Virus record (IMG/VR): IMGVR_UViG_3300028585_000011 | Direction: 5' to 3' (one strand) | Origin: a virus | Length of the DNA stretch: 39,757 nucleotides | Part shown: in pieces, positions 17,811-21,925 of the stretch | How positions within the stretch are numbered: position 1 is the first letter of the stretch | Layout: each line of letters begins with the position of its first letter | Made by a program: the position numbers and the translations under genes | The notes under the pieces: generated by a model | What the model saw: the letters and a program-made list of their open reading frames with translations, nothing else | Database searches by the model: none | Told to the model about the DNA's origin: nothing

Positions 17811-18137
17811 ATGTCAAATCCAATAGTGGCTGATCTTTTGATCGAAGCGATGGCGGGGAAGGCGACAGTCTTCGCCGCCAATATTCCACTTGCGGCCAAT
17901 GCCCGCACGTCATCGCAGGGGCCGATCGGCCGTGGCGTCTACCTGTTCGATGCGCAGTGGACCGGCACCGCGACTGTCACGCTCCAGGCGCTCGGGTCGG
18001 ATGGCGTTACGTGGCGCGACGTCGCTTCGCTGTCGGCGCCCGGCACGTTCGCCGGCGAGATCCGCATCGGCGCGGGCGCCGTACTGGCCGTCAAATCATC
18101 GGCCGCTATCACGGCCCTCAATGCGAGCATCAGCTAA
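17811..18137 (+). CDS. Hypothetical small beta-rich protein with an Asp-box motif, 108 aa
   Basis: ATG at 17811 follows GGGGG. It contains GSDGVTWRD (S-x-D-x-G-x-T-W Asp-box). Its stop overlaps the next start (TAATG). Confidence 0.5.
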   Translation: MSNPIVADLLIEAMAGKATVFAANIPLAANARTSSQGPIGRGVYLFDAQWTGTATVTLQALGSDGVTWRDVASLSAPGTFAGEIRIGAGAVLAVKSSAAITALNASIS

Positions 18138-20383
18138 TGACTGTTACGGCCTACGCCAGCGGGCAGGGAACGCCTGCCAAGATCGACGGTCTGACGAGCT
18201 CCAAGCCCGTGCCAAGCTTCAACCGTCCACCGCGCATCGACCCGCCGGGCGGCACGATCGGTGACACGCTGACCGTAAAGGACGGCGACGTACAGAACGG
18301 CACGATCGCCCGTCGCCAATGGCTGCTGAACGAGTCCGCGATCGCCGGCGCGATTGGCGCCTCGATCGTCGCGGCCGTTGCTGGATCCTATTCGTGTATC
18401 TCGGTTGCAACCGGTGACGGTGGATCCGACAGCGAGACGGCCGCGCCGGTTCTGGTGCGATCGACAGCGGCGCCCACGCCCACGCCCACGCCCACGCCCA
18501 CGCCGACACCTACACCCACGCCGGGGTTCGTTCCTTTCGCGCCTACGTCTGCAACATTTGACGGTGCTGAACCTTCAATCGATCTGCGGGATGGTGCTTA
18601 CAAAGTAGGGTCTACGACTTATCCGACAATTGCAGCTATGGTCGCGGCCGGCATTTATACGCAGGCAAGCGCCGGTGCGACGACGATGCAAAACGGCGAT
18701 CAGCTTGTGCTTCCTGCAGCCATGCCGACGACGTTCACGCTGCGGGCCGAAGGCACTACCGCTTCCAGCAACGCATTGAGCAACGTCCCGCAAACCATGA
18801 TCTCTCTCGAAGATGCGGGCTCGGTCATCACGGACGAATTGTTCCAGATCGGGCGGCAGTACGTTTCGTCTGGTGCCACGAACCGGGCGCGCTTGGTGTC
18901 GTTCACCGGTGGCACGTCGCAGGCCAACTTCCAGGACACGACCGCCACACTGACGAGCAACAACGCACCCGTCGTGTTCTCGGCCTCGGCGGCTCCCAAC
19001 AGCTATCGCCTCGCCTACATCGGGCGGAATTCATTCGACCAGCTGACGACCGCCACGGTCAGCAGTGGCTTGACCCGCATGATCATCGGCAACCAGTCGG
19101 ATGGCACGCGTAGCTGGGGTGGCACTGTCACGCGGGTTACAATCTGGCCGCAGCTTTTCGCCAAGACGCAGATGTCGGCATTGTCGCTGCGTCCCTTCGA
19201 CGGGCAGGTCCGCGGCGCGTACACCGGCAACATCAAGCCGCATTCGCGCACCATCAACGGCAAGCTGTATGCTGGACAGACGGAGGGCAACAAGCAGGGC
19301 ATCGCCGAGATCGATACGACGACCCGCGTGCTTACCGACTTCATCAATGTCGGCAGCGCCTATAGCGGCACCGATGATCACCGCTGCCCGGTTGTCGAAG
19401 TCACCCCCGGCGGGAAGGCGATCACGTTCTACACGGGTCACGGCAACGACAATATTCTCCGGTATCGCCGGTCGACCGATGGGACGTTTCGCAACCTGGG
19501 TGCCGAACAGACGATTGATTTTAGCGCGATCGGCGCGACGACTTATCCCTGCCTGCACAAACACGCATCGACGGGGCATATGTATCTGTATGTGCGCTCG
19601 TCGTCGCTGAAGTGGTCGTTTATCAAGTCCACAGATGACGGTGTGACGTGGAGCACGCCGGCGGTGCTGACCTATCACCCAGACCGTCAGAGCTATATCT
19701 ACGCCGAATGGGTCAGCACGAACCGCCTGCGCTTCTTTGTCAACGAGAACAGCGCTCTCGACGCCAGTGTCCGCATCATGGAATGGGACGTCGTGACTGG
19801 CGAAATGTTTGCGGCTGGCGGCGTTGTCATCGGCAACAGCGCGACCGGTGGCGCAAACTTCGCCGATATGACGGTGTGGCAACCGTACACCGGGGGGCGC
19901 TCGTTCTCGATGATCGAATGGGGTCCGACGCCGAACACCATTCTATATTCGGCATTGAGTGACACCGCAGAGACGTGTCAGACCTACGTCGCAAATCTCG
20001 CAACGGGTGCTGATGCGTTTGTTCGCGCAAATTGGTCCACGATCCCTCTGACGCCAGCCTATACCGGGGCGAGCGATCAGCGGCGGTTCAGCGGACAGGC
20101 CGATTTCAGCCGGCGCACCGATCTCGCCAACCCTCGCGCGTTCATCGCGCAGCGCGTCGGTACAAATTGGATCATCGAGAAGATCGACTTTACCGCAGCC
20201 GACTTCTCGACGTTCAATCGTGAGACGATCCGCAGCGTGCCCGACACCAACTACAACGCCGCCATGCGTCCTCGCTGCCCGTACAACTCGGACGGTAAGA
20301 TTGATGTTACGTGGCAAGAGGGCATCTACGCCGATTACATCGGATGGGACGCAAATCTAGTTAATAGGAAGTGGGCAATCTAA
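18137..20383 (+). CDS. Large Asp-box (BNR/sialidase-like) repeat protein with N-terminal Ig-like domain and (Thr-Pro)n linker; putative glycan-binding or depolymerase receptor-binding protein, 748 aa
   Basis: I chose the ATG at 18137 (TAATG overlap) rather than 17957. The linker is APTPTPTPTPTPTPTPTPG. A LamG-like segment ends in GTVTRVTIWPQLF. Asp-boxes are YRRSTDGTFRNLG and KSTDDGVTWSTP. Confidence 0.6.
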   Translation: MTVTAYASGQGTPAKIDGLTSSKPVPSFNRPPRIDPPGGTIGDTLTVKDGDVQNGTIARRQWLLNESAIAGAIGASIVAAVAGSYSCISVATGDGGSDSETAAPVLVRSTAAPTPTPTPTPTPTPTPTPGFVPFAPTSATFDGAEPSIDLRDGAYKVGSTTYPTIAAMVAAGIYTQASAGATTMQNGDQLVLPAAMPTTFTLRAEGTTASSNALSNVPQTMISLEDAGSVITDELFQIGRQYVSSGATNRARLVSFTGGTSQANFQDTTATLTSNNAPVVFSASAAPNSYRLAYIGRNSFDQLTTATVSSGLTRMIIGNQSDGTRSWGGTVTRVTIWPQLFAKTQMSALSLRPFDGQVRGAYTGNIKPHSRTINGKLYAGQTEGNKQGIAEIDTTTRVLTDFINVGSAYSGTDDHRCPVVEVTPGGKAITFYTGHGNDNILRYRRSTDGTFRNLGAEQTIDFSAIGATTYPCLHKHASTGHMYLYVRSSSLKWSFIKSTDDGVTWSTPAVLTYHPDRQSYIYAEWVSTNRLRFFVNENSALDASVRIMEWDVVTGEMFAAGGVVIGNSATGGANFADMTVWQPYTGGRSFSMIEWGPTPNTILYSALSDTAETCQTYVANLATGADAFVRANWSTIPLTPAYTGASDQRRFSGQADFSRRTDLANPRAFIAQRVGTNWIIEKIDFTAADFSTFNRETIRSVPDTNYNAAMRPRCPYNSDGKIDVTWQEGIYADYIGWDANLVNRKWAI
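18472..18523 (+). repeat. Hexanucleotide tandem repeat (CCCACG)n encoding the (Pro-Thr)9 linker
   Basis: Five perfect CCCACG units at 18474-18503 are followed by degenerate units (ccgaca cctaca cccacg ccg). Confidence 0.9.
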
Positions 20384-20384
20384 T

Positions 20385-21380
20385 ATGTTCAGATCGGTAT
20401 CAGTCATTGCTTTATTGATCGCCGCCCCTGCACTTGCCGGCCCCGCCAAGCCGCTCAAGCCGGGGACGGTGATCAAGAACGTCAAGAATTTGACGAGCTA
20501 TCGCTTCATCGACGCCAAAGACGAGGCGACTGGCCTTCGCATGGATGGTTTCGATCTGATGTATGGCCGCGCCGGCGTCCGCCTCCAGGGCAATGCGCAC
20601 GACATCGAGATCCGAAACGGATCGATGACGACAAAGGGCGAAACGTCGGGCAGCGATCTCCCTGTCGGGATAGATCTGGGCGGAACGGTCCACGATATTC
20701 TGGTCGAATACGTGACGGCCAGCGGTCATCGCATGGTCTACCTCAAGGGCAAGTACACCAACGGCGACGGTTTCAGCCAAGAGGCAGGCGTTTATCGGGC
20801 GACGTACCGCGCCAATATCTCAATCGACAACAGCGACGGGGGCTTTGACCTCAAAGGGCAGGCCTACCTCTACGATCTGTTGGCAGAGCGCAACGGCCGA
20901 AACTATCGGTTCTGGAACGACATCACAGCGTCGACGCTGACCAGCCGGGATCCATCCGGCGCACACGTCTGGATCAACGCGAAGGCGGCGCAGGCGGTGA
21001 CGATCGATATGCTGATCGTCTCGAGCACGACGACGGCGCCCGTTCTGCGCATTGAGAACCCCTACCCGGTGTCGATTACGATCAAGCAATGCGCGATCGC
21101 CGTGCCGGCGGGTACGCTGCTCCAATGGGGCGGCAAGGCCGCGCGCGTGACATGGGGCAAAAACTGTACGCGCGATGCCAAGGGCTATGCGATCAACACG
21201 CCGATCGCGCCCCGCGGGTTCGATGCCGGCGAGATCCTGCTCGATGGCGATCGCGACGGGCTGATCAAGCTGTCGACCGCGGCGACGATCGCGCGCATCA
21301 ACAAGCGGACCGGGCAGACGCTCAAGGCCGGCGACGTCGTCCGGTCGACCGGCGACACGTGGTACGAGCTCGTCAAATGA
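20385..21380 (+). CDS. Secreted right-handed beta-helix-like protein (putative polysaccharide lyase/hydrolase) with Sec signal peptide, 331 aa
   Basis: The N-terminus MFRSVSVIALLIAAPALA/GPAKP has a classic n-h-c signal peptide layout. Repetitive segments such as IEIRNGS, VGIDLGG, NGDGFSQE and NSDGGFDLKG resemble pectate-lyase-fold proteins. Confidence 0.55.
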   Translation: MFRSVSVIALLIAAPALAGPAKPLKPGTVIKNVKNLTSYRFIDAKDEATGLRMDGFDLMYGRAGVRLQGNAHDIEIRNGSMTTKGETSGSDLPVGIDLGGTVHDILVEYVTASGHRMVYLKGKYTNGDGFSQEAGVYRATYRANISIDNSDGGFDLKGQAYLYDLLAERNGRNYRFWNDITASTLTSRDPSGAHVWINAKAAQAVTIDMLIVSSTTTAPVLRIENPYPVSITIKQCAIAVPAGTLLQWGGKAARVTWGKNCTRDAKGYAINTPIAPRGFDAGEILLDGDRDGLIKLSTAATIARINKRTGQTLKAGDVVRSTGDTWYELVK

Positions 21381-21925
21381 GCGGCGTAGCGTTCACACCC
21401 CCCGCCCCCGTGTCGGCGCCGTCGCAAGCGGCGTTCGATGCGCTGGCGGCACAGGTCGCGGCCGCTGTACCGCTGGGAACATTCACGGTCGCGACGCTGC
21501 CGGCGCCCACGGCCGCGATCGTCGGCCGTCTGGCGAAAGTCACGGATCTCTTCGGGGATCAGTTCGACACGGTCCGCTGTTGCGCAGTGGGGACGTTCTA
21601 TTTCTGGAAGCCGCAATCGAGCGACAGCGCGCGCAACTTCGCGATGACGGCCGACATGCTGGTCAAGCCGCTAACCTACCCGCAGGGGCTTAGACTGACG
21701 GGGACGATCGGGCTCGGCACGGTCCGCAAGCTTACGCTTGACGTGGAAGGCGGCTGGCCGGGCTGCTGCAAGGAAATCAGCGCCGGCGGGCTAGGATCCA
21801 TCCTCGGAACGCTGAACGTGCTCGGGAGTGGCCTGGGAAGCGGGATCGGCCTACTGACGGGCGCCTATAAAAAGTTCATGCTCGACTATTCAGGCGGCGC
21901 GTTGTCGTGGATCCAGATCGTTTAG
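21377..21925 (+). CDS. Hypothetical fibre-associated-like protein, 182 aa
   Basis: ATGA overlap with the upstream stop. The N-terminal FTVATLPAPTAAIVGRLAKVTD resembles a motif common in small alphaproteobacterial phage fibre proteins. The C-terminus is Gly/Leu-rich. Confidence 0.45.
   Translation: MSGVAFTPPAPVSAPSQAAFDALAAQVAAAVPLGTFTVATLPAPTAAIVGRLAKVTDLFGDQFDTVRCCAVGTFYFWKPQSSDSARNFAMTADMLVKPLTYPQGLRLTGTIGLGTVRKLTLDVEGGWPGCCKEISAGGLGSILGTLNVLGSGLGSGIGLLTGAYKKFMLDYSGGALSWIQIV

What the first reader, a model, noticed from the sequence alone, without database searches (positions are those of the whole stretch)
17811..21925. Four-gene glycan-targeting cassette, including a Sec-secreted beta-helix protein, placed after the replication genes
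**Location.** The cassette lies downstream of the helicase, far from the canonical fibre gene (8260-10431). Its four genes are translationally coupled.

**The four genes.**
- A 108-aa Asp-box protein (GSDGVTWRD).
- A 748-aa protein with an Ig-like N-domain, a (Thr-Pro)9 linker, a LamG-like segment and BNR/Asp-box repeats (STDDGVTWSTP).
- A 331-aa pectate-lyase-fold-like protein with a classic cleavable signal peptide (MFRSVSVIALLIAAPALA/GP).
- A 182-aa protein with a fibre-like N-terminal motif.

**Why it stands out.** Virion proteins are assembled in the cytoplasm and normally lack Sec signals. The secreted member therefore suggests a free enzyme acting on periplasmic or capsular polysaccharide. 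Candidate roles are receptor unmasking, superinfection exclusion or biofilm matrix degradation. The cassette as a whole may be a second receptor-binding system. It ends at a bidirectional terminator facing the serine recombinase arm.
Basis: partly seen in the sequence, partly recalled or inferred. Interest (0 to 1): 0.65.

Follow-up and report, generated by a model that had tools for sequence, protein, structure and literature searches.

The report
Phage cassette with exported polysaccharide depolymerase
A small tailed phage, probably of sphingomonad bacteria, carries a mobile gene pair for two sugar-polymer-degrading-type proteins, one of which has a conserved export signal, so it is probably sent into the infected cell's envelope rather than built into the virus particle.

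Summary
The four ORFs are real and lie exactly where reported. They are tightly packed after the helicase gene and end at an 11-bp hairpin.

It is not one conserved four-gene unit:
- A syntenic 40-kb relative has only a small gene plus the g4 homologue in this slot. So g2 and g3 are an inserted mobile pair and g4 is backbone.
- g2 (748 aa) has an Ig-like domain, a (TP)8 linker and a BNR_4-type beta-propeller. A low-confidence model matches PL24/PL25/PL42/GH145 enzymes and sialidases. It has no export signal.
- g3 (331 aa) is a confidently modelled right-handed beta-helix of the tailspike/pectate-lyase type.
- g3 carries a canonical Sec signal (PALA|GP). All 14 close full-length homologues aligned (49-77% identity) keep it, together with a strictly conserved Cys pair.
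- Signal-less relatives sit in virion modules, and others sit in sphingomonad EPS clusters.
- The g3 type recurs in at least four kinds of phage genome background. It usually lies just after a variable, often glycan-active large protein, and once stands alone among accessory genes.
- g1 and g4 have unknown function. In other phages both flank glycan esterases.

Best reading: an accessory depolymerase cassette whose exported member attacks the infected cell's own polysaccharide. Enzyme activity, substrate and timing are untested. It is a new variant of a known kind, of moderate interest.

The parts
17811..18137 (+). g1: 108-aa small protein with an invariant Asp-box-like core (YxWDAQ(F/W)TGT...LG(S/A)DGVTWRDVA). 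Function unknown.
   Evidence: ORF. Homologues of 41-59% identity occur in 10 IMG/VR contigs, and one of 36% identity in Ralstonia phage C22. In the four contig types where the next gene could be read, it lies in the structural module just before a variable large protein: a CE4 deacetylase, a GDSL-like protein, and 504- and 652-aa proteins. No Pfam, PHROG or NCBIfam hit.
18137..20383 (+). g2: 748-aa modular protein without an export signal. Ig-like domain, P(TP)8 linker, beta-rich region, then a C-terminal BNR_4-type beta-propeller. Putative depolymerase or receptor-binding protein.
   Evidence: Ten close homologues conserve residues ~125-748 and have different N-termini.
18194..18472 (+). g2 N-terminal Ig-like domain (about residues 20-112).
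   Evidence: It matches repeated modules in large multi-repeat proteins. One of these, P0160, is PKD/Ig_3 by Pfam. AF2 did not fold this region (pLDDT <30).
18473..18523 (+). P(TP)8 linker (residues 113-129), encoded by a short tandem CCCACG-type DNA repeat.
19199..20380 (+). g2 beta-propeller domain (about residues 355-748) with one strict Asp-box (STDDGVTW at residue 498).
   Evidence: Foldseek of the model gives PL25 ulvan lyase at 3e-10, then PL24, GH145, PL42, NanB/NanC sialidases and a pseudaminidase. Remote homologues aligned over this region hit Pfam BNR_4, and P0152 scores above the gathering cut-off.
20385..21380 (+). g3: 331-aa Sec-exported right-handed beta-helix protein. Putative polysaccharide depolymerase with no virion anchor.
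20385..20438 (+). g3 signal peptide (residues 1-18, predicted cleavage ALA|GP).
   Evidence: The n/h/c regions can be read directly. The motif PALA|GP(D/A/K)(R/K)PL(K/R)PGTV, or a close variant of its hydrophobic end, is kept in all 14 close full-length homologues aligned. AF2 shows a detached low-confidence helix. The signal-less homologue P0029 starts at the predicted mature N-terminus with no room for an upstream signal.
20469..21164 (+). g3 beta-helix core (residues 29-260). Invariant motifs are Y124-x-NGDG-(3 residues)-E133, D151-GG-x-D155-x-K157 and R175-x-W177. Cys236 lies here; its conserved partner Cys261 is the next residue after this part.
21207..21377 (+). g3 small C-terminal domain (residues 275-331). 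Shared by both exported subtypes and by the signal-less virion-context homologue. Absent from the cellular EPS-cluster homologues.
21377..21925 (+). g4: 182-aa conserved protein of unknown function. It is the backbone gene of this genomic slot.
   Evidence: Sixteen homologues. Present at 60% identity at the same position in the syntenic phage L010. In L009 it follows a GDSL esterase gene, and in L011 it precedes a 650-aa gene. No Pfam, PHROG, NCBIfam or PDB hit.
21949..21974 (.). Terminator-like hairpin (11-bp perfect stem, loop CGAG) between convergent g4 and the minus-strand 129-aa ORF / resolvase arm.
   Evidence: The simple terminator scan did not list it because the T-run is short.

Best explanation
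The region is an accessory slot downstream of the replication genes of a complete ~39.6-kb podovirus with T7-like structural genes, probably of a sphingomonad host. A mobile two-gene depolymerase module, g2-g3, has been inserted into it between g1 and the backbone gene g4.

**g2.** It is a modular Ig-linker-propeller protein with no export signal. It stays in the cytoplasm until lysis and is then either virion-attached or free. It would bind or cleave a surface polysaccharide from the outside.

**g3.** It is made as a precursor, exported by Sec and cleaved after Ala18. It would fold in the periplasm, probably with a Cys236-Cys261 disulfide. It would then cut the infected cell's own exopolysaccharide or capsule in the periplasm or at the surface.

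**Likely payoff.** Destroying a glycan barrier or receptor on the producing cell would help progeny escape. It would also limit adsorption to debris or superinfection.

**Shown.** The ORFs, the tight packing and the insertion relative to L010. The beta-helix fold. The conservation of the signal peptide and Cys pair. The mobility of the g3 type and its recurrent position after variable large proteins, several of them with glycan-enzyme domains.

**Inferred.** Export itself, catalytic activity, the substrate, the timing of expression, the benefit to the phage, and the location of g2.
For: **Genome and position**
- An exact 127-nt terminal overlap shows a complete, circularly assembled genome. 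Genes were assigned.
- Syntenic phage L010 shares primase (76%), helicase (72%), recombinase (71%) and terminase (82%). Between helicase and the convergent arm it has only a 127-aa gene, a g4 homologue and a 64-aa gene.

**The g2-g3 pair elsewhere**
- g2 and g3 homologues are adjacent in L002, L003, L004, L022 and L030.
- In L001 they are split by an inserted acyltransferase gene.

**g3 fold and relatives**
- The AF2 model has pLDDT 92 and is a beta-helix.
- Foldseek matches CBA120 TSP2, AS12 gp42, P22 tailspike, K1 lyase, K64-1 depolymerase, fucoidan lyase and polygalacturonases. Against viral models it matches tailspikes and EPS depolymerases.
- The family profile hits pectate lyase 5olp at 5.6e-4.
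- Homologues carry weak Pel9A-like_beta_helix hits.
- Fourteen invariant residues include Asp, Glu, Lys and Arg on successive coils.

**Export**
- The signal peptide and AXA site are conserved in all close homologues, in at least four kinds of genome background.
- The Cys236/Cys261 pair is kept in all 17 aligned signal-bearing members of the two exported subtypes and their closest signal-bearing relatives. It is absent from the signal-less virion-module homologues.
- The signal-less homologue in the SU10-like phage L024 lies between a 1093-aa protein and the tail adaptor.
- Signal-less cellular homologues sit in a sphingomonad EPS cluster with Wzz/Wzc, GT4 and UDP-glucose dehydrogenase genes. 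A g3-like domain also lies in an RTX protein in that locus.

**g2**
- The propeller matches PL25, PL24, GH145, PL42 and sialidases.
- Remote homologues hit BNR_4.
- The N-terminal modules are interchangeable, as in receptor-binding proteins.

**Precedent for exported tailspike-like EPS enzymes in bacteria**
- WceF (PMC7949094).
Against: - No enzymatic, localisation or expression data exist.
- SignalP could not be run, so the signal call rests on manual reading and conservation.
- Neither g2 nor g3 reaches any Pfam gathering threshold.
- The Foldseek E-values for g3 are only about 1e-3, which shows a generic beta-helix similarity and no specific family.
- The g2 model is poor (pLDDT 56, 11 sequences).
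- Most cellular EPS-cluster homologues of g3 lack a signal peptide. Family function therefore does not by itself imply export.
- No recognisable integrase or repressor was found in the window.
- No promoter was found in front of the cassette, so timing is unknown.
- The host is inferred only from the names of distant homologues and from GC content.
Confidence: 0.5

Rival explanations
1. Lysogenic-conversion or superinfection-exclusion cargo. g3, with or without g2, is expressed from a resident prophage or episome. It remodels or removes the host's surface polysaccharide, which changes phage sensitivity or biofilm behaviour. It would not act during lytic release.
For: - In MAG prophages or prophage remnants, the g2-g3 pair lies at the cargo end after the lysis genes.
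- There it sits next to Acyl_transf_3+SGNH acetyltransferase, Wzx flippase, GT2 and polysaccharide pyruvyl-transferase genes, or next to a Dam methylase.
- In L023 the g3 homologue stands alone among accessory and defence-type genes (AAA_21/RloB).
- Degraded prophages retain the pair.
Against: - In the window the cassette has no intergenic space or promoter of its own. It is packed into the replication operon.
- The window has no recognisable integrase or repressor, only a 201-aa resolvase-type recombinase.
- In the P22-like phage L005 the g3 homologue lies inside the late structural operon.
Confidence: 0.2
2. Second virion receptor-binding system. g1, g2 and g4, and possibly g3, are structural. 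g1 would be an adaptor, g2 an accessory tailspike and g4 a small fibre or assembly factor. The g3 hydrophobic N-terminus would not work as a signal.
For: - g1 homologues lie in structural modules after capsid genes, directly before large proteins annotated as tail fibre or head decoration.
- In L013 the gene after the g1 homologue starts MAVTAWASG, like g2's MTVTAYASG, with the same overlapping junction.
- The g4-family N-terminus resembles that of 184-aa genes that precede collagen-like fibres.
- g2 homologues swap N-terminal modules as receptor-binding proteins do.
- A signal-less g3 relative is in a virion module.
Against: - For g3, the strict conservation of the signal peptide, the AXA site and the Cys pair argues for export.
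- The g2 homologue in L001, 94% identical in the conserved core, occurs without any g1.
- The cassette sits in the replication operon, not the late operon.
- g2 has no T7 gp17-like anchor, and no g2- or g3-like domain occurs in the primary fibre.
- hhalign of g1 against the small genes upstream of g4 homologues is not significant.
Confidence: 0.12
3. Captured host EPS-processing gene with no phage-specific role. g3 would be a WceF/VexL-like chain-length or export-housekeeping glycanase that hitch-hikes on phages.
For: - Distant homologues are chromosomal genes inside sphingomonad EPS clusters.
- WceF is a precedent for such enzymes.
Against: - The exported subtype is found at 67-77% identity across podovirus, P22-like and prophage-with-tail-module backgrounds. 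It keeps a phage-specific C-terminal domain that the cellular homologues lack. That indicates selection within phages.
Confidence: 0.08
4. Non-catalytic glycan binders. The beta-helix and beta-propeller would act only as lectin or adhesin scaffolds.
For: - The Foldseek list for g2 includes Photorhabdus propeller lectins.
- No catalytic residues could be assigned for either protein.
Against: - g3 has 14 invariant residues, rich in acidic and basic side chains, on adjacent coils. That is typical of an active site.
- The top g2 matches are lyases and hydrolases.
Confidence: 0.1

Closest known systems
Phage tailspike / capsule depolymerases with a right-handed beta-helix (P22 tailspike, CBA120 TSP2, Acinetobacter AS12 gp42, Klebsiella K1 lyase and K64-1 S2-4)
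   Same: g3 has the same fold, and these are its best structural matches. The family profile weakly aligns its DGF-type coil motifs to K64-1 S2-4.
   Different: - g3 is only 313 aa when mature.
- It has no N-terminal particle-binding domain.
- It carries a Sec signal and a conserved Cys pair.
- It lies outside the tail module.
- Its oligomeric state is unknown.
- Sequence identity to these proteins is 8-15%.
Bacterial EPS/CPS-cluster exported beta-helix glycanases: Pantoea stewartii WceF (Tat-exported, tailspike-like; PMC7949094) and the periplasmic Vi-antigen depolymerase cited there (Liston et al. 2018)
   Same: All are exported, tailspike-like beta-helix enzymes that act on the cell's own polysaccharide. 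g3 has distant homologues inside a sphingomonad EPS cluster.
   Different: - g3 is phage-encoded, small and Sec-type rather than Tat-type.
- No sequence similarity to WceF was detected, and WceF is not among the top structural hits.
- The sphingomonad cluster homologues mostly lack a signal peptide.
Seven-bladed beta-propeller glycan enzymes: PL25 and PL24 ulvan lyases, GH145, PL42 Rha-GlcA lyase, and bacterial sialidases (NanB/NanC)
   Same: These are the best structural matches of the g2 C-terminal domain. Remote homologues hit Pfam BNR_4. g2 has an Asp-box.
   Different: - The model is low-confidence.
- g2 itself is below every Pfam threshold.
- No catalytic residues could be assigned.
- g2 has phage-type interchangeable N-terminal modules.
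Dual receptor-binding-protein podoviruses (K1-5/SP6, Klebsiella KP32/KP34 types; from general knowledge)
   Same: A podovirus with T7-like structural genes carries a gp17-like fibre plus a second large glycan-enzyme-type protein.
   Different: - The second gene is not next to the fibre gene.
- No adaptor or branching domain was identified.
- Virion attachment of g2 is untested.
Sec- or SAR-targeted phage endolysins (fOg44 Lys44, P1 Lyz; from general knowledge) and free soluble phage depolymerases (noted in the review PMC10792971)
   Same: A phage-encoded envelope-degrading enzyme is delivered by the host Sec system, or acts as a free enzyme rather than as a virion part.
   Different: - The likely target here is a polysaccharide, not peptidoglycan.
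- The signal looks cleavable, not signal-arrest-release.
- Four full-text searches found no paper describing a Sec-exported phage depolymerase. That is not proof of absence.

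Membership tests
Right-handed parallel beta-helix polysaccharide depolymerase/lyase (pectate-lyase-like; Pfam Beta_helix PF13229, Pel9A-like PF22842) | Right-handed parallel beta-helix fold | tested here: met
   The AF2 model has pLDDT 92 and pTM 0.82, with stacked strands over residues 29-260. Foldseek hits are all beta-helix enzymes and tailspikes.
Right-handed parallel beta-helix polysaccharide depolymerase/lyase (pectate-lyase-like; Pfam Beta_helix PF13229, Pel9A-like PF22842) | Sequence match to the family HMM above the curated threshold | tested here: not met
   g3 has no Pfam hit at E<=1. Homologues have only weak or sub-threshold Beta_helix and Pel9A-like hits. 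The profile against PDB gives pectate lyase 5olp at 5.6e-4.
Right-handed parallel beta-helix polysaccharide depolymerase/lyase (pectate-lyase-like; Pfam Beta_helix PF13229, Pel9A-like PF22842) | Identifiable catalytic apparatus (Brønsted base plus Ca2+ ligands, or an acid pair) and activity on a glycan | not testable with these tools
   Invariant D128, E133, D151, D155, K157 and R175 are candidates. No superposition on an active site and no assay was possible.
Sec/SPase I-exported proteins | N-terminal n-h-c signal with small residues at -3 and -1 | tested here: met
   MFR / SVSVIALLIAAP / ALA|GP. The same architecture is present in all 14 close full-length homologues aligned and in the loci read directly. 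There is no lipobox Cys and no twin-Arg. SignalP was not available.
Sec/SPase I-exported proteins | Experimental export or cleavage | not testable with these tools
   Only indirect support is available. The Cys236/Cys261 pair is kept in all 17 aligned signal-bearing members of the two exported subtypes and their closest relatives. It is absent from the signal-less virion-module homologues.
Virion-bound tailspike / receptor-binding protein | N-terminal particle-binding (anchor) domain and a gene in the tail module | tested here: not met
   This applies to g3. Its N-terminus is a signal peptide, the mature protein starts at the helix, and the gene lies in the replication operon.
Virion-bound tailspike / receptor-binding protein | Modular architecture: exchangeable N-terminal anchor, conserved C-terminal enzymatic domain | tested here: inconclusive
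   This applies to g2. At least three different N-termini are fused to the same core, and the MKTILLWDPRFP N-terminus is also fused to a different C-terminal domain. No known anchor domain was recognised and there are no virion data.
BNR/sialidase-like or BNR_4 (GH145/PL42-like) beta-propeller | Asp-box motifs and a family HMM match | tested here: inconclusive
   g2 has one strict Asp-box. Its BNR_2 hit is E=0.025, below threshold. Remote homologue P0152 (32% identity, E=5.5e-43) scores 34.1 bits on BNR_4 against a cut-off of 27.3. A low-confidence model matches PL25 at 3e-10.
Moron (autonomous lysogenic-conversion gene with its own promoter and terminator) | Own promoter upstream and terminator downstream | tested here: not met
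   The helicase-g1 gap is 41 nt with no promoter-like site, and the internal junctions overlap. Only the downstream hairpin is present.
Invertible tail-fibre segment with Gin/Cin-type invertase (Mu G, P1 C) | Inverted crossover sites flanking alternative fibre C-termini next to the small serine recombinase | tested here: not met
   Only weak inverted repeats (71-82% complementary, of the kind expected by chance in GC-rich DNA) occur in 17000-24000. The 129-aa minus-strand ORF has a homologue in L010 at the same place and is unrelated to g4.

The most novel reading that the evidence does not exclude
Phages of EPS-rich sphingomonads carry a mobile 'inside-out' receptor- or barrier-destroying function. 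A tailspike-type beta-helix catalytic domain has lost its virion anchor and gained a Sec signal and a periplasmic disulfide. The infected cell then exports it to dismantle its own exopolysaccharide or capsule before lysis. It is typically coupled to a variable outside-acting depolymerase such as g2. This would be a phage analogue of viral receptor-destroying enzymes, and a further, glycan-layer step of phage release.
Probability: 0.3. Interest if true: 0.7.

Novelty: new variant of a known kind. Interest (0 to 1): 0.5.

Why it matters
Phage depolymerases are normally described as parts of the virion, or as excess soluble protein released at lysis.

A conserved, horizontally mobile, Sec-exported version would show that phages also attack the host glycan layer from within the producing cell. 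This bears on three questions:
- how progeny escape capsules and biofilm matrix;
- self-exclusion and superinfection;
- the search for small, secretable, probably monomeric anti-biofilm enzymes.

The signal-bearing and signal-less paralogues in different phages offer a natural experiment on how a virion enzyme is converted into a secreted one.

Tried and rejected
- **Invertible fibre segment (Mu G-like), because a small serine recombinase lies next door.** No convincing inverted repeats were found. The 129-aa ORF between them is conserved in L010 and unrelated to g4. Rejected.
- **DNA similarity to known phages.** None was found. tblastn gave only a short Gordonia-phage match to g2 residues 413-511, nothing for g3 or g4, and one weak hit for g1.
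- **Profile searches of g2 and g4 against PDB sequences.** Nothing was found.
- **GTDB genome scan with the g2 alignment.** No relatives were confirmed.
- **Homology between g1 and the small genes upstream of g4 homologues (L009_165, L010_127, L011_174).** Not significant (hhalign E=0.12). They are positional analogues at most.
- **A g2- or g3-like domain in the primary fibre or elsewhere in the window.** None was found.
- **g4 C-terminal Gly-rich stretch as a membrane segment.** The homologue alignment shows a polar, beta-like pattern. Dropped.
- **Literature search for Sec-exported phage depolymerases.** No direct precedent was found.
- **NCBIfam.** It gave only spurious low-complexity hits to the TP linker region.

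Full report
**1. The observation**

The window is a complete phage genome. Its two ends share an exact 127-nt overlap, so the unique length is about 39.63 kb.

PHROG profiles identify a podovirus with T7-like structural genes. They assign the terminase, portal, major capsid protein, tail tubular proteins A and B, and internal virion proteins, one of which has a transglycosylase domain. They also assign a fibre with a gp17-like N-terminus at 8260-10431, an endolysin, a primase at 14835-15938 and a helicase/primase-like protein at 15913-17769.

Directly after the helicase lie the four reported ORFs:

| Gene | Coordinates | Length |
|---|---|---|
| g1 | 17811-18137 | 108 aa |
| g2 | 18137-20383 | 748 aa |
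| g3 | 20385-21380 | 331 aa |
| g4 | 21377-21925 | 182 aa |

- The junctions are TAATG, TAA-t-ATG and ATGA.
- The helicase-g1 gap is 41 nt and has a G-rich ribosome-binding site.
- All four ORFs show the third-position GC excess of real genes in this genome: 0.74-0.80, against 0.52-0.59 for the antisense ORFs.
- All four have protein homologues elsewhere.
- An 11-bp perfect hairpin at 21949-21974 separates g4 from a convergent minus-strand arm. That arm starts with a 129-aa ORF and a 201-aa resolvase-type serine recombinase.

The description is therefore correct apart from three details. The linker is P(TP)8. g2 has one strict Asp-box. The g1 motif is only Asp-box-like.

**2. It is not one unit**

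A 40.3-kb contig, L010, is a clear syntenic relative. It shares primase at 76%, helicase at 72%, recombinase at 71% and terminase at 82% identity. Between helicase and the convergent arm it has only a 127-aa gene, a g4 homologue (60%) and a 64-aa gene. So g4 belongs to the backbone of this slot, and g2-g3 is an insertion.

The g2-g3 pair occurs elsewhere without g1 or g4:
- in MAG prophages and remnants L002, L003, L004 and L022;
- in the viral contig L030;
- in L001, where an acyltransferase gene splits the pair.

The g2-g3 region also has a slightly lower GC content than its neighbours.

**3. g3**

*Homologues and fold.* One hundred and twenty-three homologues were found. With a 57-sequence alignment, AlphaFold gives a confident model (pLDDT 92). 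It has a detached N-terminal helix, a right-handed beta-helix over residues 29-260, and a small C-terminal domain.
- Against the PDB, Foldseek returns phage tailspikes (CBA120 TSP2, AS12 gp42, P22, Det7) and capsule lyases or depolymerases (K1 lyase, K64-1 S2-4).
- It also returns a fucoidan lyase, polygalacturonases and pectin enzymes, all at modest E-values of about 1e-3.
- Against viral models it returns tailspikes and EPS depolymerases.
- The family profile weakly matches a pectate lyase and the K64-1 depolymerase.
- Homologues carry weak Pel9A-like beta-helix annotations.
- Fourteen residues are invariant. They include D128, E133, D151, D155, K157 and R175 on adjacent coils.

*Signal peptide.* The N-terminus MFRSVSVIALLIAAPALA|GP is a textbook SPase I signal. 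All 14 close full-length homologues aligned keep it and the junction motif PALA|GP(D/A/K)(R/K)PL(K/R)PGTV, or a close variant. A second subtype, about 33% identical and found next to g2 homologues in L002 and L004, has its own signal with an AXA site.

*Cysteine pair.* The mature protein has exactly two cysteines, C236 and C261, about one helical turn apart. The pair is kept in all 17 aligned signal-bearing members of the two exported subtypes and their closest relatives. It is absent from signal-less relatives in virion modules. This is what a periplasmic disulfide would look like, but that is an inference.

*Signal-less relatives.* A 304-aa homologue of 39% identity in an SU10-like podovirus starts exactly at the predicted mature N-terminus. 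It has no room for an upstream signal. It lies between a 1093-aa protein and the tail adaptor gene. More distant 312-aa homologues without a signal lie in a sphingomonad EPS cluster with GT4, epimerase, UDP-glucose dehydrogenase and Wzz/Wzc-type genes. A g3-like domain also sits inside a neighbouring RTX protein.

**4. Where the exported g3 type is found**

- After g2-type proteins (the window, L022, L001).
- After an 865-aa SASA-esterase/LamG protein inside the structural operon of a P22-like phage (L005).
- After a 932-aa FAD_oxidored-like protein near the end of a prophage that carries tail genes (L007).
- After 718-745-aa proteins in L028 and L029.
  - Their N-terminus, MKTILLWDPRFP..., is the same as that of several g2 homologues, but their C-terminus is different.
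  - Those contigs also encode a 568-584-aa beta-helix protein 28% identical to the g3 core.
- Alone among accessory and defence-type genes in a podovirus with a T7-type portal (L023).

Hence the exported enzyme is an autonomous, mobile accessory gene. It is usually, but not always, placed right behind a variable large protein, several of which carry glycan-enzyme domains.

**5. g2**

Ten close homologues share residues ~125-748 and differ upstream.
- The N-terminal ~110 residues match repeated Ig/PKD-like modules.
- The AlphaFold model is weak (pLDDT 56). Its beta-propeller part still matches PL25 and PL24 ulvan lyases, GH145, the PL42 Rha-GlcA lyase, sialidases and a pseudaminidase, down to 3e-10.
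- An exhaustive HMMER search found 377 relatives. Those aligned over the propeller hit Pfam BNR_4, one above threshold.
- There is no signal peptide.

The matched enzyme families act on uronate- and rhamnose-containing glycans. Sphingans are of that type (general knowledge). This is only a lead.

**6. g1 and g4**

Neither has a Pfam, PHROG, NCBIfam or PDB match.

*g1.* Its homologues (41-59% identity) lie in structural modules of other phages after the capsid genes. They sit directly before variable large proteins:
- a CE4 deacetylase;
- a GDSL-like protein that matches a PHROG family annotated 'tail fiber';
- a protein with a weak PHROG 'head decoration' hit.

In one case the downstream gene starts MAVTAWASG, like g2's MTVTAYASG, with the same overlapping junction. 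However, the L001 g2 homologue, which is 94% identical in the conserved core, has no g1 upstream.

*g4.* Its homologues follow a GDSL esterase gene in L009 or precede a 650-aa gene in L011. The family's N-terminal ~20 residues resemble those of 184-aa genes that precede collagen-like fibres.

So both genes keep company with glycan-active appendage-like genes, but their roles are unknown.

**7. Interpretation**

The best-supported reading is an accessory depolymerase cassette.
- g3 is exported by Sec and acts on the producing cell's own polysaccharide.
- g2 stays cytoplasmic until lysis and acts from outside, either bound to the virion or free.

The benefit (release through capsule or EPS, destruction of receptor on debris, or exclusion) is inferred, not shown.

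The main rival is lysogenic conversion. It is favoured by the prophage-end positions next to acetyl-, glycosyl- and pyruvyl-transferase genes in relatives. It is weakened here by the lack of an own promoter and of recognisable lysogeny genes.

A purely structural reading fits g1, g2 and g4 but not g3.

**8. Comparison with what is known**

- Beta-helix and beta-propeller depolymerases are well known in phages (PMC10792971, PMC12491483).
- Exported tailspike-like glycanases are known in bacterial EPS clusters (WceF, PMC7949094).
- Sec-targeted phage endolysins are known (general knowledge).
- Four full-text searches found no description of a Sec-exported phage depolymerase, or of its conserved coupling to a variable depolymerase.

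I therefore rate it a new variant of a known kind, with moderate interest. It is testable with simple fusions, spot assays and virion proteomics.

Noticed in passing
window 1-127 and 39631-39757: An exact 127-nt repeat at the two ends of the window. It is either an assembly overlap of a circular or circularly permuted genome, or a terminal repeat. The unique genome length is about 39.63 kb.
   Followed up: partly
window 22373-22978 (-) and 21987-22376 (-): The only recombinase found is a 201-aa resolvase/invertase-type serine recombinase (Resolvase + HTH). It overlaps a 129-aa ORF, and both are conserved in the relative L010. No integrase or repressor was recognised, so the lifestyle (lytic, episomal or integrating by another route) is unclear.
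   Followed up: partly
window 8260-10431: Only the first ~130 residues of the primary fibre are recognisable (T7 gp17-like). The ~590-aa C-terminal part has no Pfam, PHROG or NCBIfam match and is unrelated to g2 and g3. The 8-11 kb region has the lowest GC in the genome (0.54-0.60).
   Followed up: partly
L001, L002, L003, L022 (MAG and metagenome contigs): These prophages or prophage remnants lie next to recJ in L001 and L002. They keep an integrase, holin-endolysin-spanin genes and the g2-g3 pair. They also carry variable polysaccharide-modification cargo: an Acyl_transf_3+SGNH acetyltransferase, Wzx flippase and GT2 in some, FrhB-like plus pyruvyl transferase in another. Together they look like serotype-converting islands.
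   Followed up: partly
L008 1-1202 (Sphingomonas sp. NY01 chromosome): A 731-aa RTX (HemolysinCabind) protein in the same EPS locus contains a g3-like beta-helix segment (38% identity over 145 aa). This suggests a type I-secreted paralogue alongside the signal-less 312-aa one.
   Followed up: no
L023 5339-7282: An AAA_21/AAA_15 ATPase plus RloB gene pair (defence-system-like) lies a few kb upstream of a stand-alone g3 homologue, on a phage contig with a T7-type portal.
   Followed up: no
L024 10001-10915: A signal-less g3 homologue (39% identity) sits in the structural module of an SU10-like podovirus, between a 1093-aa protein and the SU10_adaptor gene. It is a natural comparator for the signal-bearing form.
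   Followed up: partly
L028 and L029, about 3760-5995: The N-terminal module MKTILLWDPRFP... found on several g2 homologues is here fused to an unrelated C-terminal domain. This suggests an exchangeable anchor module.
   Followed up: partly
window 18471-18523: The TP linker is encoded by an imperfect tandem CCCACG/CCGACA DNA repeat. Such a repeat could change length by slippage.
   Followed up: no
window 2030-5350: A 1106-aa internal-virion-type protein has a transglycosylase segment (residues ~392-555) and a C-terminal part matching very large virion proteins (phrog_10691).
   Followed up: no
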